Virus record (IMG/VR): IMGVR_UViG_3300023443_000116
Coordinates: 1 to 50,895 of that record
Origin: a virus
Lineage: Duplodnaviria; Caudoviricetes
Direction: 5' to 3' (one strand)
Length of the DNA: 50,895 bases
Shown here: positions 18,239-28,065 of the stretch, piece after piece
How positions within the stretch are numbered: position 1 is the first letter of the stretch
How the letters are laid out: each line of letters opens with the position of its first letter
Translations under genes and position numbers: made by a program
Notes under the pieces: model-generated
What the model saw: the letters and a program-made list of their open reading frames with translations, nothing else
Told to the model about the DNA's origin: nothing
Database searches by the model: none

Positions 18239-18541
18239 ATGAGTGAAAAATTAAGTGAAGAAACCCTTTTAATTGCACGCCATCTTACGGTTGCTCGTGT
18301 TCAGGATTTGCTTCTAGGAATGATGTTAAGAGCCTCCAATAGTGGCTATTCTATGGATATTTTCGACAAGCGTTTAGGATGGAAACCGGGAAAAATAACA
18401 GAAAAAGTTTATTCAGGGGACATTTCTTTAGATGATCTTTCAGACATTGCGCGGGCCTTTTGTTGCAAGCCAATATACGGGACAGAATCTATAGGCACTG
18501 TTGATTACGACTTCAAAAAGCAAGCGAAGAAAACCCCATGA
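18239..18541 (+). CDS. XRE-like HTH protein
   Basis: RLGW....I.......DISLDDLSDIARAF. Confidence 0.6.
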   Translation: MSEKLSEETLLIARHLTVARVQDLLLGMMLRASNSGYSMDIFDKRLGWKPGKITEKVYSGDISLDDLSDIARAFCCKPIYGTESIGTVDYDFKKQAKKTP

Positions 18542-18667
18542 CCTCATATATTAAGACGATACAGGATAAATAATGTTTGAACTATTAAGCCCAATACAAT
18601 GGTCTATAGGATTCACTTTTTTCCTGTTCTGGCTTATATGGTTGTTGGGGGATAGATAAAGGAGTGT

Positions 18668-18721
18668 GGCCCCGGCACAGTTTGTTGGGTGTTACAGCGA
18701 GGAGGAGAAAGTGCCGAGGCC
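18668..18721 (-). ncRNA. 11-bp stem-loop with a CUCCUCCUC loop
   Basis: GGCCTCGGCAC/GTGCCGGGGCC; the G-U pair favours the minus strand. Confidence 0.45.
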
Positions 18722-18746
18722 GAGGGGAAATTAGAAAGGAAATATA

Positions 18747-18932
18747 ATGAGCATAATGACTTGCATTAAATGTGACCGATATATTGATACCGATTACGAT
18801 GTCGAAGGGATTTGGGTTGATAAAAAAGGAAGCCCATCACATGACGATCCTTGGGACCTTGTTTGCTCTAAATGTGTAGAAAACCATTTCACTCCTGAAC
18901 AAATGGAAGTTTACGATAATGTATATTGGTAA
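18747..18932 (+). CDS. Small Zn-binding protein
   Basis: CxxC twice; AAAGGA RBS. Confidence 0.7.
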   Translation: MSIMTCIKCDRYIDTDYDVEGIWVDKKGSPSHDDPWDLVCSKCVENHFTPEQMEVYDNVYW

Positions 18933-19157
18933 TTATTCTTCTCCGCAGTTAAGGATGTGAAGAGCGTTGTCATCACCGACAGATTCCATGAAATTCTCAA
19001 AGCCTTCAGGCCAGTCTAAATCAGCAAGCCAGTCTTTTGTTTCGTCATCCATGGTGAGAGGTTCATGCCAATAGCATGTCAGATCAGTCTTTACCTTGAT
19101 AGCTCCTGTTATGCCACAGCCGCTTAACAACAAGGATATAAGGATGATTCTAATCAT
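18933..19157 (-). CDS. o-spanin-like lipoprotein (Rz1)
   Basis: Lipobox LLLSGC; additional Cys; end of the lysis cassette. Confidence 0.7.
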   Translation of the reverse strand: MIRIILISLLLSGCGITGAIKVKTDLTCYWHEPLTMDDETKDWLADLDWPEGFENFMESVGDDNALHILNCGEE

Positions 19158-19476
19158 TGATGTTGCATTCATTGGAGTAAACCCTCATTTCATCAACAAC
19201 TTCAAATAGGATATCACCCATGTTAGCATCACCCCACTGGTCAATGTGTCTGGGGTTGTCGCGCTGGTCTTTTTCAAACTCTACCATTCGACTATATTCA
19301 CGTTCAATTTCGTCTGCCCAATGGGGAAGCAAATTTACTATGCGCTCTGACTGGCAATTATCTCTGAGAGTATAGTTAAGTTCTGCACTATAAGCTGTGC
19401 TAAAGCCTATCAAGATGCTCACGGTTAGTGCGTTTCGGAGAATCTTTTCTAATCTTCTTGGCTTTCTTCCTTGCAT
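19150..19476 (-). CDS. Hypothetical protein with signal-peptide-like segment (start uncertain)
   Basis: ALTVSILIGFSTAYSA followed by a soluble domain. Confidence 0.55.
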   Translation of the reverse strand: MQGRKPRRLEKILRNALTVSILIGFSTAYSAELNYTLRDNCQSERIVNLLPHWADEIEREYSRMVEFEKDQRDNPRHIDQWGDANMGDILFEVVDEMRVYSNECNIND

Positions 19477-19606
19477 TGTCTCCCGCCTTCATCTGTTTAA
19501 GTTCAACCTCACGGGCTCCAGTCTTCTTGTCTTCGGACCGTTGTAACCCGCCGAGTATCTTTCCGATAACTCCAAAGAGGTTTTTAAGTAGTCCTATAAA
19601 GCCCAT
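19400..19606 (-). CDS. i-spanin-like protein (Rz)
   Basis: Amphipathic N-terminus plus basic coiled coil; follows the holin. Confidence 0.55.
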   Translation of the reverse strand: MGFIGLLKNLFGVIGKILGGLQRSEDKKTGAREVELKQMKAGDNARKKAKKIRKDSPKRTNREHLDRL

Positions 19607-19776
19607 CAGTCATTGGCCGGTGCAGCATACACACCAATGGCACTTAACAGACCCAGAACAGCAGTTTGGATTTCAGGACCGTCCATACCTTCAGGCAAGA
19701 CACCAAAGTTAATGATTGCGGCCACAATCAAGCCAACGACCATCCCGATAATCTTTGAATATTTTTTCATCGTCAT
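19606..19776 (-). CDS. Holin-like two-TM protein with dual start (MTMKKYSK...GVYAAPAND)
   Basis: Read manually; AGGAG RBS; two TM helices; directly downstream of the endolysin. Confidence 0.7.
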   Translation of the reverse strand: MTMKKYSKIIGMVVGLIVAAIINFGVLPEGMDGPEIQTAVLGLLSAIGVYAAPAND

Positions 19777-19781
19777 TACTC

Positions 19782-20192
19782 CTATTTATATGAATAAATG
19801 ATGGCTGGTAGTTTCGTGTATGCCACCCTCTTATCCAGGTGAAGGAAGGTATCTCCTATTCCTACCGTCCAGTCAAGATACAGGGCCATACGCATTAGTA
19901 AATGTAAGTCCCTGCTGTTTGGCCGTGCAATATCAACCGCACAGCAGTCAGTCTTGTATTTCTTGTTGCCAATCAAGTGGAAGGAGTTCACAGAGGCTTG
20001 GTAACCCCTCCTCAGAAGCCATCTCACCTTTTCCTGTGACCTGCACCCATCTGTAACGATCATGGGCTTGGCATAGCGCTCACGGAGGTTATCCAGTTCT
20101 GTTATAAATCCGGGCTGAAGCTTGACTTCTCCTGTAATAGAATCAGCAAACTCGGCTTCTGTAAAATATTTCTTGTCGCTTAAGTAGGACAC
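19782..20192 (-). CDS. Endolysin, peptidase M15A family
   Basis: YFT..EF; G.RS; S.H.....AVDI; FLHLD.R. Confidence 0.88.
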   Translation of the reverse strand: MSYLSDKKYFTEAEFADSITGEVKLQPGFITELDNLRERYAKPMIVTDGCRSQEKVRWLLRRGYQASVNSFHLIGNKKYKTDCCAVDIARPNSRDLHLLMRMALYLDWTVGIGDTFLHLDKRVAYTKLPAIIYSYK

Positions 20193-20410
20193 TTCTCTTC
20201 CAAAGTCGTTTTTATAAATGGGGCAAGTCTAGCAGAAAAATTCTCACCCTCAGTTTTGAACTTAAAATCAAATTCCATATCACGTTCCTGAGTCGCTAAA
20301 GTGACACCAGAGCCGATAAAATCTCCACGCCAACTTTTGGCAAGATGAAATATTTGATTGTCTAGTTGTGAATTCAGACCATCAGGATATTTTAGTTTGA
20401 CTGTAATCAT
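20180..20410 (-). CDS. Small ferredoxin/ACT-like-fold hypothetical protein
   Basis: GGAG RBS; GSG......RDMEF.F pattern. Confidence 0.6.
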   Translation of the reverse strand: MITVKLKYPDGLNSQLDNQIFHLAKSWRGDFIGSGVTLATQERDMEFDFKFKTEGENFSARLAPFIKTTLEEKCPT

Positions 20411-20421
20411 TATTAATCTCC

Positions 20422-21183
20422 TTATAAGTAGCGCATCATGAATACCGCAGGAAAGAAATCCAGTCTCCCTATTTCAATTCCAGTACCACGCAGGATTGTA
20501 ACACAGTTATTGCTTATCAATCTATAGGGTTGTCCAAGTTTAATGCCCAACATCTTACCGAAATCAGGGGGAGGTTTTATCTGTACCAACCTTCCCTGTT
20601 TTAATATCTTATGTTTAATGGGCCGCTTCTGATAACCGTCAAGACCTCGTTTGAAAAAATAATGCTGCCCAAGGTGAACCACTGCAACGTGAGATGTTGG
20701 GGCTCCTGTGAGCGATATAAATATATCTCGAACATTTTTAGGTTTCCTGAAGAATAAATAGGTGTTTAACGGGCTGTAGAGAGCCGTGGGACGTGATAGG
20801 AAGTTTTTATGTATCATACCAAGCCAAAGTAAAGGAAGGGCTATGTATGGCACTGACAGCGGTAAAAAATAATTCCGGTTAAACCAATAGGCATAACTGG
20901 GGTCATCAGCGTAATAGATAGCAAATTGCAAATATACTCTAGCAAGACCGTCTATAATCTCCATTGAAAGCCAGATCAGGGCAATGATTATCATAAATGG
21001 TTGTTTAATATATTTTAAACAAACCCAGAAAAGAAGAAAAGCCGGAATAATATTATCTAAAATCCCGGCTGTTATTGCAGTATGGAGTTGGGCATAATTC
21101 TCAACAGGAAATAAAAGATATAAGTTTTCTAATCCTATCTGAACTATGATTAGCCCAAGAAGTATTTTAGTCGGGCGGTCCAC
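20422..21183 (-). CDS. Multi-TM membrane protein with C-terminal permuted papain-like (PPPDE/LRAT-type) domain
   Basis: About 4 TM helices, then SHVAVV..G.HY.F and GQPYRLISNNC; likely GTG start at 21183 overlapping the peptide gene. Confidence 0.75.
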   Translation of the reverse strand: MDRPTKILLGLIIVQIGLENLYLLFPVENYAQLHTAITAGILDNIIPAFLLFWVCLKYIKQPFMIIIALIWLSMEIIDGLARVYLQFAIYYADDPSYAYWFNRNYFLPLSVPYIALPLLWLGMIHKNFLSRPTALYSPLNTYLFFRKPKNVRDIFISLTGAPTSHVAVVHLGQHYFFKRGLDGYQKRPIKHKILKQGRLVQIKPPPDFGKMLGIKLGQPYRLISNNCVTILRGTGIEIGRLDFFPAVFMMRYL

Positions 21184-21358
21184 AGCTAGGAGGGCACGTT
21201 GGCGAGTGCAATTGAATTGTCGCCATGTTTCCACAGACTAAGTTTATCCATTCTTCCCATTCCGGGTGAGCCTCCCTTTCGTCTTCGGGATAATGTGCGT
21301 TTTCAAAAGCCTCACAAAGTTTATCAAGAGCTTTCGTTAGTTTTTCATGTCGTGTCAT
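21167..21358 (-). CDS. 63-aa peptide ending SPTCPPSCGPPD (candidate precursor)
   Basis: AAAGGA RBS; own promoter; overlaps the peptidase start. Confidence 0.75.
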   Translation of the reverse strand: MTRHEKLTKALDKLCEAFENAHYPEDEREAHPEWEEWINLVCGNMATIQLHSPTCPPSCGPPD

Positions 21359-21389
21359 TGTTATTATCCTTTCTTAGTTGAGGATTTCT

Positions 21390-21418
21390 ATACTACCGTA
21401 GGTTATGTTATAAAACAA
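21390..21418 (-). promoter_or_regulatory. Candidate promoter for the peptide/peptidase pair
   Basis: TTGTTT-N17-TAGTAT. Confidence 0.45.
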
Positions 21419-21420
21419 CC

Positions 21421-21546
21421 TTTGGTGTAGTTAGAATTGGTGGCGACGCATCTATTCAGGCATCATCCCATGTCCGAGGAGTTGTTACTTACTTAGCTCG
21501 AAAGCTACGCACTATGCCTTATTCGCCAACTTAATGGACCACCAAA
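21421..21546 (-). ncRNA. Candidate structured ncRNA
   Basis: Nested stems TTTGGTG/CACCAAA, TGGCGA/TCGCCA, AGGCAT/ATGCCT and TAGCT-TTCG-AGCTA. Confidence 0.55.
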
Positions 21547-21549
21547 TAT

Positions 21550-21846
21550 CTATACAGACACCTCGGGATTAGTTGACGCACGGAATATGTCCGTTGTTTT
21601 CCCATTGCTGTTTTCAACAATTATCTTGTCAGCACATCCTTCAAATTCCCAAAGAGTGTGGTCCTCTTTCGCATAACAAGCAGTTGTTATATCTATTTGC
21701 TTTATCTTGCCACCATCATTTGCGTCTTTAAAAAAGAATTCTTGACTGCTTGGACTGTCAGAGCCAGCCTCATGGGCACCAGTGTTATAAGAGATGGCTT
21801 CATAAGTCCGTTGTTGGTTAACGCTATAGGCTTTAATCGTAAACAT
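21550..21846 (-). CDS. Conserved hypothetical protein (MFTIK...IIVENSNGKT)
   Basis: AGGAG RBS; recognisable phage family pattern. Confidence 0.75.
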   Translation of the reverse strand: MFTIKAYSVNQQRTYEAISYNTGAHEAGSDSPSSQEFFFKDANDGGKIKQIDITTACYAKEDHTLWEFEGCADKIIVENSNGKTTDIFRASTNPEVSV

Positions 21847-21886
21847 AGTCTTCTCCTTGTTTCTTCTGTTTTCTTGTTTCTAGTTA

Positions 21887-22075
21887 CTATCTCGTCATAC
21901 TCATGAACATCATAGCCAATAAAGCACCTAAAATCAATAATATGATGGAAAGCTTACCATCCATGTGAGCCATCTTCTTTTCAAGTTTGTTAAATTCAAT
22001 AGCCCACGCATCCCAGATTACATCAAAATGCTTGTGCATCGGGCCTTTGGAAAAGTCTGGTTTCTTGAAAGTCAT
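21887..22075 (-). CDS. Coiled-coil plus C-terminal TM protein (XhlA/holin-like)
   Basis: Heptad segment followed by a hydrophobic tail. Confidence 0.65.
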   Translation of the reverse strand: MTFKKPDFSKGPMHKHFDVIWDAWAIEFNKLEKKMAHMDGKLSIILLILGALLAMMFMSMTR

Positions 22076-22083
22076 AAATACTC

Positions 22084-22410
22084 CTAACGTTCACAATTTA
22101 TAGGTGGATAATTAAGCCTGAATAGAATATCAACAAGCTTATCTTGTTCGTCACGGGAAAGTGGAAATCTTTTGATGCACACTTTATCTTTATAAAAACC
22201 GTAGTCTTCTAAATCGAACCGCCGCTGGGTGCGGATTTGTTCCTCTTTAATGGGGTTTACTTCTTGGGCAATAGCACCAGTCAGTTCAGTTTGGGTCGTT
22301 GTGTTCTCATCAATAACCGTTTGAAGCTGGAAGTACCCCAAGATTGCTGCAACAATAACCCCGATACCAACGCCTCCGCCTACCTTTGTTCCTTTGGATA
22401 AAGTCATCAT
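22084..22410 (-). CDS. N-terminal TM protein
   Basis: GGGVGIGVIVAAILGYF; two Cys in the C-terminal part. Confidence 0.65.
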   Translation of the reverse strand: MMTLSKGTKVGGGVGIGVIVAAILGYFQLQTVIDENTTTQTELTGAIAQEVNPIKEEQIRTQRRFDLEDYGFYKDKVCIKRFPLSRDEQDKLVDILFRLNYPPINCER

Positions 22411-22853
22411 GGTACCGGTGCCTCCAGATTAGCCCAGGATACAAGACCGGACCTAGCCGTTCCTGTTCCTGAAACAGTAAAGGTGAATTTCATTCTTAAA
22501 TCTGCGTAATCAGTAATTGAATCCGCCTCAGTTGCAGTAAGGGTTTCGTTTCTTTCTCTCCAGTTTGAAGAGATATTAGTATGAGTTCGCGTTGCCCGCG
22601 TAGTTACATTTTCAATCAGTTCAACCTGTAGAGCCAGTGTCCTCCCAGCATTAGCATTTTTCTTATAGGCATAGTTCAAAACATGACCAAGACTTGTGGT
22701 GGGGTCAGTGATTGTCGTAAGTCCAGCCTCAAAGGTAGCTATCGTAGTTTCTTCCAAAGGAAGGATGTGACTGATGATGAAATCACTGTCATCTCTGGTA
22801 GCTTCATTAATGTCTGTCCAGGTGCCTCCCCAGCCTACCACTACCGTAGCCAT
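22407..22853 (-). CDS. Fibre-tip/jelly-roll-like protein (possible C-terminal part of a split gene)
   Basis: WTDINE...DDSDFI...ITDYADLR; downstream of the fibre gene. Confidence 0.65.
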   Translation of the reverse strand: MATVVVGWGGTWTDINEATRDDSDFIISHILPLEETTIATFEAGLTTITDPTTSLGHVLNYAYKKNANAGRTLALQVELIENVTTRATRTHTNISSNWRERNETLTATEADSITDYADLRMKFTFTVSGTGTARSGLVSWANLEAPVP

Positions 22854-23059
22854 TACTTGATAACTCCAAGGAAGGGACCGGGGCCTTCAAAGAGACTGCC
22901 AGAGCCACCTTGAGAAGACTGATTTTCGCTTACTGTAGTGGTAACGGTTGAAGATGATACTTCTTCATCTGGCCTAGCAAAGGTTGGGACATTAACAGGA
23001 GCCTCCACTGCTTCAGGACGAAGCGAGTTTGATTGTAAAGATGCATATAAATAACTCAT
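22853..23059 (-). CDS. Small fibre-associated protein (possible N-terminal part of a split gene)
   Basis: ATGA-coupled to the fibre gene; FARPD motif. Confidence 0.55.
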   Translation of the reverse strand: MSYLYASLQSNSLRPEAVEAPVNVPTFARPDEEVSSSTVTTTVSENQSSQGGSGSLFEGPGPFLGVIK

Positions 23060-24042
23060 GCTGGATTCAAGTCCCCTCCCATAAGTATCTCAGTCGATGA
23101 AATTTTCTCCCAAGTAATAATTGAAAATTGACCACGGGCAGCAACAGTAGCATTAAAGGCACTTGATAATCGCAAGGTAGTCGAAGTCCCTGCAGTAAAG
23201 GTTAAATTACCAGTGCCCACCTGTCTGCATATTCCGTATTCATTTGTTGTAAATGTGCCAACGGTAAGGGTAAAGGCTCTTGTCGTTGAACCTGTTAGCT
23301 CTACTGCCTTTCCTGCGTCATCTGCAACCAATTCATATGCGATTGATTTTGTAGTAACCCCACGATGACTTTTCTTTGCTGTATCAATTTCGGTAGTAGG
23401 GTCCGAGAGCTGTTCAATAGTCATGCTGGTGGTGCCAACAACAATAGTTCCATCAGTAGTTAGCGCAAACTCAAGTTTGCCATTTAATGTACCTTCTCTT
23501 ACTGCTACCCAGAAACCTAAAGCATCAGCGTCTTCGTCCAAATCCCCTGAACGAGCCCATGCAGAGGCAGAAGCATCGTATATCCCATTCTCAGCACCTG
23601 AAGTCTGGTCTTTAACCAATACCCTATCGCTTGCTACCACGGACACACCATCAATGGTCTGCGCCCCTGAAAGAGTTATATTTGCAGTCGTCGCTGCTCT
23701 CACTGAAGATTTGGCATTAGCCCCTGAAGAGGAAACTGTTGTAATAACATCATCTACAGGGTCATTCGTGAACAGTTCCACACCAGCAGAATCCTTGGCA
23801 ACGAACTTGAATGAACCGCTTCCCCATATATCTACTCTCGCCCCGGCAGTATTCTCCCAGAACCCAGCAGAGTTGCTTATCAAGGGATTGGTGTTAGCAA
23901 TGGATAAGGCTTTGTCAGCAAAGGTCGCCTTGTCTGTCGTGGTGCCGGTGACGTAAGTAAATAACTGTGCTCCTGATAAAGGGACGCCTGTCGTAGCGTT
24001 GGTTATCCTTAAGCCTGGTGCCCAGAGCAGTGAACCCGCCAT
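23056..24042 (-). CDS. Tail spike/fibre with head-binding-type N-terminal domain
   Basis: G.PL.GA.LFTY..GTT...T..D....ANTNP; VRAATTANITLSG.QTIDGV...DRVLVKDQ....NGIY. Confidence 0.85.
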   Translation of the reverse strand: MAGSLLWAPGLRITNATTGVPLSGAQLFTYVTGTTTDKATFADKALSIANTNPLISNSAGFWENTAGARVDIWGSGSFKFVAKDSAGVELFTNDPVDDVITTVSSSGANAKSSVRAATTANITLSGAQTIDGVSVVASDRVLVKDQTSGAENGIYDASASAWARSGDLDEDADALGFWVAVREGTLNGKLEFALTTDGTIVVGTTSMTIEQLSDPTTEIDTAKKSHRGVTTKSIAYELVADDAGKAVELTGSTTRAFTLTVGTFTTNEYGICRQVGTGNLTFTAGTSTTLRLSSAFNATVAARGQFSIITWEKISSTEILMGGDLNPA

Positions 24043-24079
24043 TATGTGTGCTCCCCGTTCTGATTGTGTGAACCTGCCA

Positions 24080-26731
24080 TTATTTACTTTCCTCCATGAG
24101 TTTCTTAAGTGCGGCCACTGATTCTTCAGGCCCTAGCTGCTCGTTCTCTAACATGCTGGCTATGTCTTGAATCGTAAATCCCAGCGTCCCTATTACGAAG
24201 TTCCAAAATTCCCTATCCGCGACCCTTTTTTCATTCACCCTCAAAAGGGTTTCCAGTTTATTGGGATCGCGTAATATTTTTAACATCGCATCGTCTGTAG
24301 CAACAGGAAAGAACCGTTGTGCTACTCTTATCCTGAAACCCTGACGGTCAAGAGGACCAAAGATCATCTTGCGTGTTGCCCCTATTACTCCAGGCTTCTC
24401 TGCCACACCTCTTGTGAAACTAACTGTCCCCTGAACACCGCTGACTTCTGCGAACCTAGCTAATTCATCTAGGTTCGCAATATGCTCTGGGCCAAAGATT
24501 ATTTCAAGTTCTCTACGGGAGTCACCAGTCAATGCTTTCTTGAGTGCTTCAGGGTTACCAGCGGTGTCTTCCATTAACTGTTGCATTCTTACGCCTCTGA
24601 ATGCTTCAGCCTTGTCACCATCAAGAAGCTCCATCATTCTACGGGCGTTGCTGGGGCTACCCTTTGTGGCTTTCACGGCATCTTCAGGGTCGAATCTTCC
24701 TAACTTGTAGACAAATCCAGTGTTGGGGTTTTTGAAACCGTCAGCATCCCCGCCACCTTGAAGCTCTTGAATTAAACGTTTTTCGTTTTTCTCAATTTGA
24801 ATTAATTCGTCTTGTAGTATGCCAGCATCACGAAAACGAACCATTTCTTCAGGGGTATAAACCTGTTCGAGTGCTTTGCGGTTTCTCGCCATCCAAGTTG
24901 CGTGTTTTACGTTCCCTTCCACGACCTGTTCAGTATATAATCCGTCGAATGCTCTTTTGATGTCATCAACTGCATTTAATTGCGGGAAATCCTCGGCTAC
25001 TCTTAGATAATCTCTCAAATCAGCTTCACTTCTGATTATCTTTCTGAAAACAGCATCGTCGGCTATTTTGAAAGTGCCCCTCTTTCTTTGGAGAATTGCA
25101 CCAACTATTCCTTCATCTATTTTTTCTTTGGCCTGTCGCCACAAAGCATCCTGACTTCTTACGGCTGCTGCTATTTCAGGATCAAGGCCTTTAAGAGCGG
25201 TGTCTCGTGCAGTCTGCAATTCGTCTATCAATTCACCTATTAATCTTTTTTCTCGGACCTTTGCTCCGCCAAGCGGGCTCCCTATTAATCTTGATTGTTC
25301 TTTTAAAGCTGATAGTGCCCTTGAGGTTGCAGAGAACGATACGCTGGGTGAATTACCTGCTTTCAAGGCTTCTTTTACAACCGCTCTGTCTTCTGCCGCA
25401 AGTGATGGGAAAATGTCTTCGTTAAGACGGGCTCTCCATCGTTCCCCAACTGCCTTTAATCCTGAGACATTAACTCTTGTCCCCTCTGGGACTCGTGCTA
25501 AAATCTCATCATATTGTTTTTCTAAAATCTCAAACACTTCATCTCTTCCTTGCTGTAGAACACCTCGGATGTTGGCTCCACCTTCTGCACCAGAAATGCC
25601 AGCAAACTCAGATATCTGTTCATTGACCCTACGGGTCTGCTGCACTGTTGATCTGGAAATTTCATCAACACGCCCCAAATATTGTTGCCGAGCTTCATCA
25701 GTGATTTCTCTACCCACTACTATTGGATCAGCACTGCCATCTATTAGATCAGTCCTGAGCCTAGCTTCTGCTGCTTCTTGTCCCACTCCTCTTTCGAGTT
25801 CTCCTGTCGCTACTTCATCAGTTAATTCAGTGGCACGAAGTCTTGGCCCAGTTACTGGCTCTACTTGTGCTAATCTCTGACCTGCTGAAAACTCCACACC
25901 AGCCGCTTCTTCCAAGGGGGCTACCCGCGCTCTACCTGCTGCCAATCCTTCTGCCGTAACTCCTTCTTTGCCTAATCGGCCTAAAGCTCTGCGTTCCGGG
26001 CTGAGAAGACTTCTAACGCCACGACCAACACTTGGTATAGCTGTAAACCCACCTGCCAACGCTGCTTCGGTTGCTGATCTCTTTAAAATTTCGTTTTCTT
26101 CTGGAGTAATTATTCCCTGTTGTTCCAAAAAAGCTAATTGTGCCGCTCTGGCACCTCCTGCACCCGCAGCAGCCCCACCAATCACACCAAGAGGACTTCT
26201 TGTGGCAACTCCTCCTGCTATAGCGCCGACTATTTCACCAGCAATAACAGGGGCCTCAGCAAGAGCAACGGCAAAGTCGGCTTGGTCAAACCCAGCAGGA
26301 TCAAGTGCTTCAAATTGTCCAGTCTCTGGGTTTTTGAAAACAATTTCGCCCTCAAAGTTGCCTATCTGACTTTCGTCGAGAGCAGCGCCGAATTCAATTC
26401 TAAGCTCTCTTTTCACATCATCTAAGCCACCAAGAGCACCAGCCAATCTTGACCGAACACCGCCGCCTTCTGCTGTTTCAACGTTCTGAAGACCTAAATC
26501 CTCTAATTTCTCTGTCCTAGTGGGCCTACGCTCTACAAGCCCAAATCTGCTTTCACGAAAACGTTTTGTTGGCTCTGGAGTTGCCCGTATTTCTTCTCGA
26601 CCTCTGCCAGGAATTTCAACGAATGTACCGCCAAATTTACTCACAGGTTCTTCCTCAGCCAGAACGCCGCCAAACTTACTTATACTGGGATCAGGAATTC
26701 CTTGGAATTCTACGGGGCCTTTATGTGGCAT
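24080..26731 (-). CDS. Large DNA-ejection/internal virion protein
   Basis: 883 aa, helical, Ala/Gly-rich TM-like segment; third gene of the ejection trio. Confidence 0.7.
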   Translation of the reverse strand: MPHKGPVEFQGIPDPSISKFGGVLAEEEPVSKFGGTFVEIPGRGREEIRATPEPTKRFRESRFGLVERRPTRTEKLEDLGLQNVETAEGGGVRSRLAGALGGLDDVKRELRIEFGAALDESQIGNFEGEIVFKNPETGQFEALDPAGFDQADFAVALAEAPVIAGEIVGAIAGGVATRSPLGVIGGAAAGAGGARAAQLAFLEQQGIITPEENEILKRSATEAALAGGFTAIPSVGRGVRSLLSPERRALGRLGKEGVTAEGLAAGRARVAPLEEAAGVEFSAGQRLAQVEPVTGPRLRATELTDEVATGELERGVGQEAAEARLRTDLIDGSADPIVVGREITDEARQQYLGRVDEISRSTVQQTRRVNEQISEFAGISGAEGGANIRGVLQQGRDEVFEILEKQYDEILARVPEGTRVNVSGLKAVGERWRARLNEDIFPSLAAEDRAVVKEALKAGNSPSVSFSATSRALSALKEQSRLIGSPLGGAKVREKRLIGELIDELQTARDTALKGLDPEIAAAVRSQDALWRQAKEKIDEGIVGAILQRKRGTFKIADDAVFRKIIRSEADLRDYLRVAEDFPQLNAVDDIKRAFDGLYTEQVVEGNVKHATWMARNRKALEQVYTPEEMVRFRDAGILQDELIQIEKNEKRLIQELQGGGDADGFKNPNTGFVYKLGRFDPEDAVKATKGSPSNARRMMELLDGDKAEAFRGVRMQQLMEDTAGNPEALKKALTGDSRRELEIIFGPEHIANLDELARFAEVSGVQGTVSFTRGVAEKPGVIGATRKMIFGPLDRQGFRIRVAQRFFPVATDDAMLKILRDPNKLETLLRVNEKRVADREFWNFVIGTLGFTIQDIASMLENEQLGPEESVAALKKLMEESK

Positions 26732-28065
26732 TATCTTTTCTCAAATATTGGGCCATCAGGTGTTTCCCTGAATAAGGTCCCAGGCGGAAGTGCATCAAAC
26801 TCGTCCTGAGTTGTAATTAATTGAGCCTCCTGATCTCTGGTAGTCGCTTCCAAATCAACACCAAAATCTCTAAGAAATTGTTCTCTATTAAATTGTTGAC
26901 GTTGGTCTGCTGGCAAACTCCTCTGTTGAGATTGGAATATAGTCTCGGTTGTGTCTAACGAGAATCGGTCTATTTCATCAAATGCAGCTAACATTTGGCT
27001 TTCACTACCGCTTGTCATTGCGGAAAGTTGTTGGGCTAATCTCGCATCAAAATCTGATGGTCTTGCCCCACCATTGAGCATTACAGCTAAAGCTCCTGTC
27101 AAACGAACCAAATTAGTTTTAAATCCTTGGCTTTCGGCAGCAAATCTACCAAATCTTCCTTCGTCTTCCAAGCGTTTGACAACATCTGGTGAGAAGTCTC
27201 CTTCAAGAAGTTGTCCCGCTTGTTGAAATTGCGATACTATAGTGTCGCCCAACCGTGCAAGAGTCCCCACAATACCAGTTGTTACACCGCCCTCAGCCAA
27301 CTGTTCTCTTAATCTGGCAGTAGTTTTAAGGGTGTTAGCTGTAGATTCTTCTGATTCTCTCAGCCTTATGTTTTCAGTGCCTACTTGAGTTTTTGTTAAA
27401 CCCGTTGGGGATATACCTGCGCCCGGCAAGTCAATATTTGGTGCTCTTGTCGCAATAAATCCTTGAGATTCAAGTCGCCTTGCTTTTTCTGAACCAGGTT
27501 GAGCAGTATCAATCTCTTGTTCTCCAGTGTCTGTAAATCTAATAAAGGGTACGGCCCCTTGGTTTACTTCATCAAATATCGTGGCAATCTTATCAGACTG
27601 AAAAATAAACCCGTTTAATTGTTGTGTGTTTTTTGTGGTAGGGATTTGGTCTTCTGGTATTCCTGCGTCAAGCGCTTGCTGTATAAACGTGTCAGGAATA
27701 GGGCCACCCTCAGGAATACTCTGGTCATCCAAAACAGCCCCAGCTAGACCACTTAATACTCGGGACCTTCGCGCACCAGCAGCCCTCTCCTCTACACTAG
27801 CTTTAACATTGAAATCCAATAAATTTTTACCTGCTTCAGGGTCAAGTCTAAATACCTGCTCTGTCGCTGCTGTTGCCGCCTCATCGTTATCTCCCAATGC
27901 TATGCCTGTAAATTTAGCTATTTCCACTTGTTTTTGTCTATTCTGTCTGAAAGCATTTAAATTTTCCTGCGCTATATCAAAGTTAAGGGCATTGGTTTTG
28001 GCTTGTTGAACCTGGCCAAAGACTCCAGCAATATTTACATCTGTAATGTTAAATGGGCCTGCCAT
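26731..28065 (-). CDS. DNA-ejection protein (P22 gp20-like position)
   Basis: Gln-rich helical protein; G...SD.D motif; synteny. Confidence 0.65.
   Translation of the reverse strand: MAGPFNITDVNIAGVFGQVQQAKTNALNFDIAQENLNAFRQNRQKQVEIAKFTGIALGDNDEAATAATEQVFRLDPEAGKNLLDFNVKASVEERAAGARRSRVLSGLAGAVLDDQSIPEGGPIPDTFIQQALDAGIPEDQIPTTKNTQQLNGFIFQSDKIATIFDEVNQGAVPFIRFTDTGEQEIDTAQPGSEKARRLESQGFIATRAPNIDLPGAGISPTGLTKTQVGTENIRLRESEESTANTLKTTARLREQLAEGGVTTGIVGTLARLGDTIVSQFQQAGQLLEGDFSPDVVKRLEDEGRFGRFAAESQGFKTNLVRLTGALAVMLNGGARPSDFDARLAQQLSAMTSGSESQMLAAFDEIDRFSLDTTETIFQSQQRSLPADQRQQFNREQFLRDFGVDLEATTRDQEAQLITTQDEFDALPPGTLFRETPDGPIFEKR

What the first reader, a model, noticed from the sequence alone, without database searches (positions are those of the whole stretch)
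20422..21418. Candidate phage peptide-processing system: Cys/Pro-tailed precursor plus membrane-bound permuted-papain enzyme
Seen: a candidate promoter (TTGTTT-N17-TAGTAT) and an RBS precede a 63-aa ORF. It has a charged helical N-part and the tail HSPTCPPSCGPPD. Its last codons overlap the GTG of a ~253-aa protein with about 4 TM helices followed by SHVAVV..G.HY.F and Y.L..NNC. Known: His-before-Cys with Y.L..NNC is the catalytic signature of permuted NlpC/P60 enzymes (PPPDE peptidases, LRAT acyltransferases). A small precursor coupled to a membrane Cys-peptidase is the layout of AgrD/AgrB-type signalling. Inference: the enzyme cleaves, cyclises or lipidates the CPPSC core at the membrane. 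The product could be a signal, an exclusion factor or a lysis-timing cue. The pair sits as a self-contained insert just upstream of the endolysin. I do not know of a described equivalent in proteobacterial phages.
Basis: partly seen in the sequence, partly recalled or inferred. Interest (0 to 1): 0.85.

Follow-up and report, generated by a model that had tools for sequence, protein, structure and literature searches.

The report
Phage membrane papain-like protein pair
Just before its cell-bursting genes, this phage encodes a small cysteine-tailed protein coupled to a membrane protein whose inner domain folds like lipid-handling papain-type enzymes; the pair is real and undescribed, but nothing shows that it makes a signalling peptide.

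Summary
On the minus strand a 63-aa acidic, four-Cys ORF (21358..21167) ends in HSPTCPPSCGPPD. It overlaps the GTG (21183) of a 253-aa protein with four membrane helices. The tail is identical in 11 of 12 residues across 4 homologues despite near-saturated synonymous change, so the small gene is real.

An AlphaFold model (pLDDT 89.5) places the C-domain in the circularly permuted NlpC/P60 fold: YiiX Z 9.2, B. cereus 3kw0 Z 8.8, PLAAT3 first in Foldseek. No Pfam, PHROG, NCBIfam or PADLOC model matches either protein.

The signalling reading is not supported:
- The catalytic His occurs in only 8 of 47 family members and looks derived. Only the Cys is invariant.
- The domain is predicted to face the cytoplasm.
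- The tail is invariant, not variable.
- Distant homologues in 64 Vibrio phage records sit at the same place beside the endolysin, but their overlapping small ORF has no Cys.

Best reading (about 0.4): a lysis-module membrane protein doing acyl/thiol chemistry on lipids or on its small partner.

The parts
21167..21358 (-). 63-aa acidic (pI 4.85), four-Cys small protein; no hydrophobic segment
   Evidence: ORF list. Homologues P0056 and P0057 and the L003 ORF. pN/pS about 0.4-0.5 overall. Charge and hydropathy.
21170..21208 (-). Conserved tail HSPTCPPSCGPPD. The core SPTCPPSCG(P/N)PD has 11 of 12 residues invariant in 4 sequences.
   Evidence: Alignment A6. Synonymous third-position changes in the DNA alignment. 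Tail pS 0.61-0.89 against pN 0.09-0.26.
21367..21370 (-). AGGA ribosome-binding site of the small ORF, conserved in L002 and L003
   Evidence: Sequence; DNA alignment A2.
20422..21183 (-). Membrane protein, 253 aa from GTG 21183. The frame is also open from GTG 21234, giving 270 aa; residue numbers here use the 270-aa frame.
   Evidence: ORF list. A GTG lies near the small ORF's end in all three loci, but the upstream extension is in a different relative frame in L003 (offset 2, against 1 in window and L002). The database protein P0010 starts with V at the matching position.
20800..21177 (-). Four transmembrane helices (residues about 20-145), predicted N-in/C-in
   Evidence: Model helices 20-36, 47-76, 79-108 and 112-145. 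Hydropathy peaks and K/R distribution: the N-terminal segment holds 4 K/R in the 270-aa frame but only 1 from V18. Loop 2 holds 2 and the stretch after TM4 holds 6. Loops 1 and 3 hold 0 and 1.
20425..20778 (-). C-terminal domain (residues 153-270) with the circularly permuted NlpC/P60 fold; basic (residues 146-270: pI 10.6)
   Evidence: pLDDT 89.5. YiiX 2if6_B: Z 9.2, rmsd 2.7, 115 aligned. 3kw0_A: Z 8.8, rmsd 3.1, 122 aligned. PLAAT3, YiiX and Aichivirus 2A are the first three Foldseek rows, at E 0.21-0.35.
20689..20691 (-). His182 (in SHVAVV), at the position of the permuted-family catalytic His; present in 8 of 47 family members
   Evidence: Column counts; tree; greedy hhalign puts S181-H182 on YiiX S48-H49.
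20524..20526 (-). Tyr237 (in GQPY), aligned with the signature Tyr115 of YiiX
   Evidence: hhalign. Column counts Y 18, W 13, F 6 of 47. Role of the Tyr from PMC3142127.
20503..20505 (-). Cys244 (in NNC), the only invariant residue of the family (47 of 47); Asn243 in 41 of 47
   Evidence: aligned with YiiX Cys128.
20180..20410 (-). 76-aa ORF between the pair and the endolysin. A homologue is present in L003. L002 has an unrelated 69-aa ORF here, and L003 carries a homologue of that one too.
   Evidence: no family match.
19782..20192 (-). Endolysin (M15-like peptidase); its start overlaps the end of the 76-aa ORF
   Evidence: phrog_894 endolysin, E 1.7e-9.
18933..19776 (-). Rest of the lysis cassette: 56-aa two-helix holin-like protein, 68-aa basic protein, 108-aa protein with an N-terminal membrane helix, and an overlapping 79-aa lipoprotein (LLLSGC).
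   Evidence: ORF list. phrog_1275 Rz-like spanin, E 7.9e-4, for the 79-aa ORF. The holin and inner-spanin labels are my reading of the sequences.

Best explanation
The two genes form a translationally coupled accessory module of the phage's late lysis gene block.

The large protein is anchored in the host cytoplasmic membrane by four helices. It holds a basic, circularly permuted NlpC/P60 (papain-like) domain against the cytoplasmic face. Known members of this fold class carry acyl chains on their Cys as a thioester. They work on phospholipids or lipidated proteins, not on free peptides.

I propose that Cys244 takes part in such acyl/thiol chemistry at the inner leaflet late in infection. In this clade it would be helped by His182 and Tyr237. 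The small acidic protein, made in step with it, would be its partner: either the acceptor of the acyl group on its CPPSC tail, or a regulator that holds the enzyme in check until lysis.

Shown: both genes are real; the fold; the invariant Cys; the linkage in the close clade; the position beside the lysis genes in two unrelated phage groups.

Inferred: the topology, any catalysis, the substrate, the role in lysis, and any contact between the two proteins.
For: Fold:
- Model pLDDT 89.5.
- YiiX Z 9.2 and 3kw0 Z 8.8, each covering the whole C-domain.
- PLAAT3, YiiX, Aichivirus 2A and PLAAT4 are among the first six Foldseek rows.
- LRAT, PPPDE and picornavirus polyproteins appear among viral models.

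Fold class handles lipids:
- A fatty acid is bound in YiiX, and the family has a hydrophobic S1 pocket (PMC3142127).
- Tox-Act1 is a phospholipase (PMC12994826).
- LnsA, which N-acylates lipoproteins, had the same PDB entries as its top HHpred hits (PMC7387801).

Residues: Cys244 in 47 of 47, Asn243 in 41 of 47. S-H, Y and C align with YiiX S48-H49, Y115 and C128.

Topology: K/R lie on the N-terminus, loop 2 and after TM4.

Operon: the genes from the small ORF to the spanins overlap or lie a few bases apart.

Same position beside an endolysin:
- L002 and L003.
- The two Vibrio phage records I read, out of 64 with a match. Their proteins score 117.7 and 108.2 bits against the family profile. 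An endolysin lies nearby in MG592563 (phrog_465, E 3e-33).
- The neighbouring large structural protein is unrelated between window and L002 (E 0.049) and between window and the Vibrio phage (E 1.8).

Coupling:
- A small hydrophilic ORF overlaps the gene's start in both lineages.
- Charges are complementary: small protein pI 4.6-4.95, C-domain pI 10.6.
Against: - The canonical His is missing in 39 of 47 members. On the tree it arises three times within Ser/Thr/Gly lineages. Most of the family cannot be a standard Cys/His enzyme.
- L003's protein lacks His182 and His191 yet keeps the Cys-tail partner.
- No sequence-level membership in any permuted family. Pfam gave no match for the window protein at E <= 1. 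The 47 members matched 8 unrelated families, each in a single member, at E <= 0.1. PF05708 found nothing in the genome at E <= 10. hhalign probability is about 1% or less.
- Foldseek E-values against the PDB are all above 0.001.
- The Vibrio-phage partner has no Cys, so Cys-tail acylation cannot be the family-wide chemistry.
- Topology rests on the positive-inside rule only.
- I could not inspect model coordinates, so the His-Cys distance and the nature of the pocket are unknown.
- Position near lysis genes is only circumstantial evidence for a role in lysis.
Confidence: 0.4

Rival explanations
1. Non-catalytic membrane protein of the lysis or exclusion machinery. The papain-like domain is a pseudoenzyme used as a cytoplasmic docking or sensing domain. 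The small soluble protein is its cytoplasmic regulator, much as T4 RIII binds the cytoplasmic part of holin T (recalled, not from a call). The invariant Cys would serve structure, self-acylation or thiol sensing.
For: - His is absent in 39 of 47 members and is not ancestral on the tree.
- The third triad position aligns with Lys195 rather than an acid.
- Position among small membrane proteins beside holin, endolysin and spanin genes in two phage lineages.
- The small partners are not homologous between lineages, as expected for fast-evolving regulators.
Against: - An absolutely invariant Cys preceded by Asn, plus a conserved aromatic residue seven positions before it, is what an active site leaves behind, not a scaffold.
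- His has appeared three times at exactly the canonical base position.
- A separate 56-aa two-helix holin candidate already follows the endolysin.
- Neither protein matched any PHROG or Pfam family, holin families included.
Confidence: 0.28
2. One reading: an AgrD/AgrB-like or RiPP-like system. The membrane Cys-peptidase cleaves, cyclises or lipidates the CPPSC core, and the product leaves the cell as a signal, exclusion factor or lysis cue.
For: - Small ORF translationally coupled to a membrane protein with a papain-type His/Cys in this clade.
- Two Cys in a strongly conserved tail.
- AgrB's catalytic residues also face the cytoplasm (recalled).
Against: - The fold is permuted NlpC/P60, not AgrB, and neither protein matched any Pfam family at E <= 1.
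- The conserved element is the extreme C-terminus and is invariant across phages that differ by 14-52% overall. Signal peptides and RiPP cores usually vary while leaders are conserved.
- No amphipathic or hydrophobic leader: maximum 19-residue hydropathy is 0.56.
- No exporter or receptor gene was recognised among the neighbours I scanned, 18933-28065.
- The partner in Vibrio phages has no Cys.
- L003's enzyme lacks the His.
- This fold class has a narrow hydrophobic S1 pocket judged unsuitable for peptides (PMC3142127).
Confidence: 0.06
3. The two genes are only operon neighbours. The small protein is an independent metal-binding (for example Cys4 zinc) or redox protein. Its tail is conserved for metal binding, with no functional tie to the membrane protein.
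For: - Each of the 4 homologues has exactly four Cys: two in the helical part and two in the tail.
- C-P-P-S-C-G resembles a zinc-knuckle C-P-x-C-G with one extra residue (my reading).
- Only 3 related phage contigs show the linkage, so it is a single evolutionary observation.
Against: - The start of the membrane gene lies inside the small ORF's last codons in all 3 loci.
- An analogous overlapping small ORF exists in the unrelated Vibrio phages.
- The two N-terminal Cys are not at aligned positions in L003.
Confidence: 0.15

Closest known systems
YaeF/YiiX-like permuted NlpC/P60 proteins (MEROPS C92; PDB 2if6 YiiX, 3kw0 B. cereus)
   Same: Best structural matches over the whole C-domain (Z 9.2 and 8.8). 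Same order of S-H, then G-x-P-Y, then C. Thought to act at membranes on lipid-linked substrates (PMC3142127).
   Different: - No sequence-level match: Pfam PF05708 found nothing and hhalign probability is about 1%.
- YiiX has a cleavable N-terminal signal or lipoprotein-type targeting, not a four-helix anchor.
- Its acidic third residue (Glu64) aligns with Lys195 here.
- His is invariant there but present in only 8 of 47 here.
LRAT / PLAAT (H-rev107) acyltransferase-phospholipases and picornavirus 2A H-box/NC proteins
   Same: PLAAT3 is the first Foldseek row. Aichivirus 2A, PLAAT4 and TIG3 also appear. A viral LRAT and picornavirus polyproteins appear in BFVD. His-then-'NC' motif order. Membrane-tethered with the catalytic domain on the cytosolic face (recalled for PLAATs).
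   Different: All those Foldseek E-values are weak (0.2-1.2). PLAATs have one C-terminal anchor helix, whereas here four N-terminal helices precede the domain. The NCEHF motif is not kept (NNCVT here). Hosts are eukaryotes and their viruses.
LnsA/LnsB lipoprotein N-acylation system of Staphylococcus aureus
   Same: A permuted NlpC/P60 protein works with a polytopic membrane protein to put an acyl chain on a Cys-bearing protein end. LnsA's reported top HHpred hits (2IF6, 3KW0, HRASLS proteins) overlap the set found here (PMC7387801).
   Different: LnsA is secreted and acts outside the membrane, and the two Lns genes are not adjacent. Here the two parts are one polypeptide facing the cytoplasm. 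I ran no direct sequence comparison with LnsA.
Tox-Act1 / TseH type VI effectors (permuted NlpC/P60 phospholipases)
   Same: Permuted core used in a conflict setting to attack bacterial membrane phospholipids. His and Cys are needed for toxicity (PMC12994826).
   Different: Those are soluble, secreted, act in the periplasm and pair with a membrane immunity protein. Here the enzyme itself is the membrane protein and the small partner is soluble and acidic. I did not test for homology.
AgrB/AgrD quorum-sensing peptide maturation
   Same: A small ORF directly upstream of a membrane protein with His and Cys; that is, gene layout only.
   Different: Different fold; no Pfam family matched either protein; no amphipathic leader; an invariant C-terminal tail instead of a variable internal core; no sensor kinase or regulator seen nearby.

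Membership tests
Circularly permuted NlpC/P60 superfamily (YaeF/YiiX, LRAT/PLAAT, PPPDE) | Papain-like alpha+beta core with the Cys-bearing helix after the beta-sheet | tested here: met
   Model pLDDT 89.5. 2if6_B: Z 9.2, rmsd 2.7, 115 aligned over model 153-270. 3kw0_A: Z 8.8, rmsd 3.1, 122 aligned. Helical-bundle rows of similar Z cover only the membrane part.
Circularly permuted NlpC/P60 superfamily | Invariant catalytic Cys at the start of a helix near the C-terminus | tested here: met
   Cys244 in 47 of 47 aligned members and Asn243 in 41 of 47. Aligns with YiiX Cys128.
Circularly permuted NlpC/P60 superfamily | Invariant catalytic His on a beta-strand upstream of the Cys | tested here: inconclusive
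   His182 is present in the window protein and in 8 of 10 close relatives. Family-wide it is present in only 8 of 47: S 26, G 7, T 5, A 1. On the tree His needs three separate changes.
Circularly permuted NlpC/P60 superfamily | Signature Tyr before the Cys; third polar triad residue | tested here: inconclusive
   Tyr237 aligns with YiiX Tyr115. The column holds Y 18, W 13, F 6 of 47. The third position (YiiX Glu64) aligns with Lys195. The paper notes the third residue can be dispensable.
Pfam families Peptidase_C92 (PF05708), LRAT (PF04970), PPPDE (PF05903), NLPC_P60 (PF00877) | Score above the family's gathering threshold | tested here: not met
   The window protein matched no Pfam family at E <= 1. 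None of these four families is among the 8 families, each matched by a single member, at E <= 0.1. PF05708 gave no match in the genome at E <= 10. The accession numbers other than PF05708 are recalled.
Circularly permuted NlpC/P60 superfamily | Hydrophobic S1 pocket and lipid substrate | not testable with these tools
   Needs coordinates or biochemistry.
AgrB/AgrD-type peptide maturation | AgrB-family membrane peptidase | tested here: not met
   The protein matched no Pfam family at E <= 1, AgrB included. The catalytic domain has the NlpC/P60 fold.
AgrB/AgrD-type peptide maturation | Precursor with an amphipathic membrane-binding leader and a variable internal Cys core followed by a removable tail | tested here: not met
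   Maximum 19-residue hydropathy is 0.56. The Cys motif is the extreme C-terminus, with 11 of 12 residues invariant in 4 sequences.
Holins | Match to a known holin family; small size; a charged C-terminus after the last membrane helix | tested here: not met
   The protein matched no PHROG or Pfam family. It has 253 aa with a folded 118-aa C-domain. Hole formation is not testable here.

The most novel reading that the evidence does not exclude
A phage-encoded two-part protein lipidation relay.

The membrane-anchored permuted papain-like domain loads an acyl chain on its invariant Cys, from host phospholipid or an acyl-thioester. It then passes the chain thiol-to-thiol onto the CPPSC tail of the co-translated small protein. 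Thiol-to-thiol transfer would explain why most of the family can do without the His. The acylated small protein would then sit on the inner leaflet and set the time of lysis or block superinfection.

S-acylation of a dedicated substrate by a phage, in a bacterium, would be new chemistry for phage lysis modules.
Probability: 0.12. Interest if true: 0.85.

Novelty: new variant of a known kind. Interest (0 to 1): 0.55.

Why it matters
Phage lysis in Gram-negative hosts is explained by holins, endolysins and spanins. To my knowledge no cytoplasm-facing, lipid-directed papain-like enzyme is described as part of that machinery. Four full-text searches listed no such paper (titles and abstract starts only).

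This family has no Pfam, PHROG, NCBIfam or PADLOC model. It is nevertheless present in at least 64 sequenced Vibrio phage records that can be grown, so it is open to genetics.

If active, it would add a membrane-lipid or protein-acylation step to lysis control. It would also give a natural case of a Cys-only (His-less) permuted NlpC/P60 active site. If inactive, it is a clear case of a pseudoenzyme recruited as a membrane regulator.

Tried and rejected
Programmed frameshift fusing the two ORFs: rejected. The large frame is offset by 1 from the small ORF in window and L002, but by 2 in L003 (coordinates).

Own sigma-70 promoter or self-contained insert: not supported. L002 lacks the 190-nt gap and the 98-aa ORF upstream.

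Known RNA families in 18500-23000: none at E <= 1.

Complex prediction of residues 18-270 with the small protein: verdict 'no answer', score 0.00. This is neither for nor against binding.

First structure run with only 10 sequences gave pLDDT 56.4 and was not used.

Sequence searches that gave nothing:
- Phage GenBank collection by DNA and by protein with the window protein, and with P0028, P0031 and P0021.
- PDB by profile: no papain-like entry at E <= 10.
- ESM Atlas for both proteins.
- Longer fused forms of the C-domain (weak evidence).
- PADLOC and NCBIfam.

Loci I looked for and did not find:
- A1 and P0004 in metagenome contigs.
- P0011, P0012, P0015, P0020 and P0044 in IMG/VR.
- A1 in 185,579 species genomes.
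As a result, linkage of the Cys-tail ORF could be read in only 3 loci of one clade.

The degenerate tail pattern hit 10 IMG/VR stretches. Only 1 (L008, the same contig as L003) encodes the family protein or a short ORF ending in the motif. The other 9 lie in long GC-rich frames.

Rows dropped before the 47-row counts: P0005 and P0006 (truncated close copies), P0013 and P0016 (N-terminal fragments), and P0032, P0047, P0053 and P0054 (profile match ended before or near the Cys). In the printed sequences, P0032, P0047 and P0054 still show N-C and P0047 has a His at the S/H position.

I did not use the look-up of sequencing runs or read laying. Supplements were not opened. Table S3 of PMC12994826 (homologue lists of the permuted clades) might include phage members that I could not see.
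Full report
WHAT IS THERE

The window is a complete 50,895-bp IMG/VR virus record with direct terminal repeats. The finding lies on the minus strand.

- An ATG at 21358, preceded by AGGA, opens a 63-aa ORF that ends in HSPTCPPSCGPPD, with its stop at 21167-21169.
- A second frame is open from GTG 21234 to the stop at 20422-20424 (270 aa; I number residues in this frame).
It gives 253 aa.
- SHVAVVHLGQHYFF is residues 181-194, and YRLISNNC is residues 237-244.

THE SMALL GENE IS REAL

Two other IMG/VR contigs carry a homologue of the large gene: L002 at 75% identity and L003 at 51%. Each has a short ORF overlapping the large gene's start:
- L002: 61 aa ending in SSPTCPPSCGPPD.
- L003: 56 aa ending in SSPTCPPSCGNPD.

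A protein search with the small ORF returned two proteins: P0057, which is L002's ORF, and P0056, a 63-aa protein at 86% identity.

In the four-sequence alignment the last 12 residues are identical at 11 positions, while the helical N-part drops to 48% identity overall. The DNA differs at third codon positions through the tail, including AGC against TCG for one serine. A Nei-Gojobori count across window, L002 and L003 gives tail pS 0.61-0.89 and pN 0.09-0.26. Selection therefore acts on the peptide in the small ORF's frame.

The large frame's upstream extension is not conserved. Its offset from the small ORF is 1 in window and L002 but 2 in L003. This rules out a conserved frameshift fusion and points to a start at the GTG near the small ORF's end. 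The database protein P0010 begins with V at that position. No Shine-Dalgarno sequence precedes this GTG, so translational coupling is the likely mode. That is an inference.

PROMOTER

The scan found 12 promoter-like sites in 19000-22500 against 7.4 +/- 2.7 in shuffles. The -35 part is not conserved in L002 or L003.

From the small ORF down to the spanin genes, the genes overlap or lie a few bases apart. I read the pair as part of the late lysis operon, not as a self-contained insert.

THE FAMILY

Neither protein matches Pfam, PHROGs, PADLOC or NCBIfam. The only row was an F0F1 ATP synthase subunit B model at 14.8 bits against a cut-off of 197.

- A word-based search found 10 proteins at E <= 0.01 among 650 candidates, the window's own included.
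- A full HMMER scan of 1.84 billion representatives with their profile found 47 at E <= 0.001, of which 8 were at E <= 1e-10 and 7 at E <= 1e-30.
- I aligned 47 of the 55 proteins in hand. The eight dropped rows are named under Tried and rejected.
- Across those 47 members, Pfam gave only 8 unrelated families, each matching a single member.
- A profile search of PDB sequences gave no papain-like entry at E <= 10.

FOLD

With 10 sequences the model was poor (pLDDT 56.4). With 47 sequences it reached pLDDT 89.5 and pTM 0.73. It shows helices at 20-36, 47-76, 79-108 and 112-145, then an alpha/beta domain from about residue 153.

An all-against-representatives structural search gave these rows for the C-domain:
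- YiiX (2if6_B): Z 9.2, rmsd 2.7 A, 115 residues, spanning model 153-270.
- The B. cereus 'cysteine peptidase' 3kw0_A: Z 8.8, rmsd 3.1 A, 122 residues.
Other rows of similar Z are helical bundles that cover only residues about 1-182.

Foldseek against the PDB gave no row at E <= 0.001. Its first three rows were PLAAT3 (E 0.21, probability 0.85), YiiX (E 0.35, probability 0.90) and Aichivirus 2A (E 0.35). PLAAT4 and TIG3 ranked lower.

Against viral predicted structures, six rows reached E <= 0.001. These are unnamed or uncultured-phage proteins, the best at E 1e-8. Weaker rows included a giant-virus LRAT, a PPPDE protein and many picornavirus polyproteins.

All the named relatives are circularly permuted NlpC/P60 proteins. 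Per PMC3142127 (abstract and sections 8 and 12 read), these share a Cys/His dyad, a third polar residue and a signature Tyr. They have a hydrophobic S1 pocket, and YiiX holds a bound fatty acid.

hhalign of the family profile against E. coli YiiX is not significant (probability about 1%). Even so, it aligns LGQPY...NNC with YiiX LGKPY(115)...C(128). A greedier run also aligns S181-H182 with S48-H49, and Lys195 with Glu64.

The fold assignment is solid. The residue equivalences are consistent with it but are not proven.

THE ACTIVE SITE IS NOT CANONICAL ACROSS THE FAMILY

Column counts over the 47 rows:

| Position | Residues |
|---|---|
| 244 | C 47 |
| 243 | N 41 |
| 237 | Y 18, W 13, F 6 |
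| 182 | S 26, H 8, G 7, T 5, A 1 |
| 191 | W 18, H 6, Y 6 |

Among the 10 close relatives, P0009 (L003's protein) and P0010 have Thr at 182.

On a maximum-likelihood tree of the C-domains, the six His-bearing rows of the window's clade are nested among Ser, Thr and Gly rows. His needs three separate changes on that tree. Only the Cys is universal.

TOPOLOGY

Hydropathy peaks lie at residues 33, 63, 89 and 132. K/R are distributed as follows:
- N-terminal segment: 4 in the 270-aa frame, 1 from V18.
- Loop 2: 2.
- The 29 residues after TM4: 6.
- Loops 1 and 3: 0 and 1.

This predicts N-in/C-in. The C-domain (20 K/R, 5 D/E, pI 10.6) would lie on the cytoplasmic face. The small protein is acidic (pI 4.85) and has no hydrophobic stretch. 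Both would meet in the cytoplasm.

CONTEXT

Downstream of the pair lie:
- a 76-aa ORF;
- an M15-like endolysin (phrog_894, E 1.7e-9);
- a 56-aa two-helix protein;
- a 68-aa basic protein;
- a 108-aa protein with an N-terminal helix;
- an overlapping 79-aa lipoprotein (phrog_1275, Rz-like spanin, E 7.9e-4).

Upstream are small membrane proteins and a tail-fibre gene (phrog_11518, E 3.2e-30).

L002 and L003 keep the same order, although L003 has a different M15 endolysin (PF08291, E 2e-18). The large structural protein next to the block is unrelated between window and L002 (E 0.049).

Distant family members P0048 and P0034 hit 64 and 63 Vibrio phage records by tblastn. I read 2 of these records:
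- Their proteins match the family profile end to end, at 117.7 and 108.2 bits.
- In MG592563 the gene (NVP1194O_49) follows a 914-aa structural protein and a small membrane protein. It precedes a membrane protein, an endolysin (phrog_465, E 3e-33) and another membrane protein.
- That 914-aa protein is unrelated to the window's 883-aa protein (E 1.8).
- In OQ622096 the gene is not annotated.

The same position beside the lysis genes in two otherwise unrelated phage groups is the strongest hint to function. It is still circumstantial.

THE PARTNER ACROSS LINEAGES

In both Vibrio phages a 51-aa ORF overlaps the family gene's start. It is annotated in OQ622096 as gene0050. It is basic with an acidic patch (pI about 10), has no Cys, and is not alignable with the window's small protein.

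'A small hydrophilic ORF coupled upstream' is therefore shared. 'A Cys/Pro tail' is not.

A degenerate DNA pattern for the tail found 10 IMG/VR stretches. Only the one from L003's own contig encodes the family protein or a short ORF ending in the motif.

HOW IT MOST LIKELY WORKS

I commit, at about 0.4, to a membrane-anchored, cytoplasm-facing permuted papain-like domain that uses its invariant Cys for acyl/thiol chemistry at the inner leaflet late in infection. The small protein would be its co-translated partner, either acyl acceptor or brake.

The precedents are all lipid-directed:
- YiiX with its bound fatty acid.
- Tox-Act1 as a phospholipase.
- LnsA acting with a polytopic membrane protein to acylate a Cys-bearing lipoprotein end. 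Its reported best structural relatives overlap the PDB set found here.

The main rival, at about 0.3, is a pseudoenzyme that serves as a lysis or exclusion regulator. The loss of His in most members favours that rival. The AgrBD-like signal model (about 0.06) has only the gene layout in its favour.

NOVELTY AND LIMITS

Four full-text searches listed no paper on a phage membrane protein of this kind. I saw only titles and abstract starts of those listings. I read passages of PMC10318531, PMC12994826 and PMC7387801.

Earlier notes of this scan hold nothing on this protein elsewhere.

Limits:
- I could not inspect model coordinates.
- Nothing here tests activity, topology or binding.

Noticed in passing
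window 21359-21549 (minus strand): A 190-nt non-coding gap lies between the 98-aa ORF and the small ORF. L003 has a similar gap of about 223 nt, but L002 has only 29 nt and lacks the 98-aa ORF. A stretch ATAGAAATCCTCAAC just upstream of the RBS is largely conserved in all three loci. No Rfam family matched. Another note of this scan (e1-6298718) proposes a structured RNA here.
   Followed up: partly
window 19400-19606 (minus strand); L002 6993-7199: A 68-aa protein with an amphipathic Gly-rich N-terminus and a very basic C-half sits between the holin-like gene and the spanin-like genes. It is nearly identical in L002. No family match. It could be a further lysis factor.
   Followed up: no
L003 6214-6714 against window 19782-20192: The endolysin differs between relatives that share the pair: a clear Peptidase_M15_3 of 166 aa in L003, and a divergent 136-aa M15-like protein in window and L002. 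The 76-aa and 69-aa ORFs between the pair and the endolysin are also swapped. The lysis region is mosaic.
   Followed up: partly
L005 3941-4651 (OQ622096, Vibrio phage 13VV501A): A full-length member of the family (108 bits against the profile) lies in a stretch where the record has no annotated gene.
   Followed up: yes
window 22084-22410 and 21887-22075; L002 4260-4577 and 4581-4832: Two small single-helix membrane proteins upstream of the pair are conserved with it in L002 and L003, although the adjacent large structural gene is unrelated. They may belong to the same lysis or exclusion block.
   Followed up: no
residues 36-37, 55-61 and 88-99 of the membrane protein (window about 20936-21129): The membrane helices of the close clade carry invariant or near-invariant polar residues (GLEN, TAGILDN, W88, D95-G96, R99). 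That is more than a passive anchor would need. They are not conserved in the wider family.
   Followed up: no
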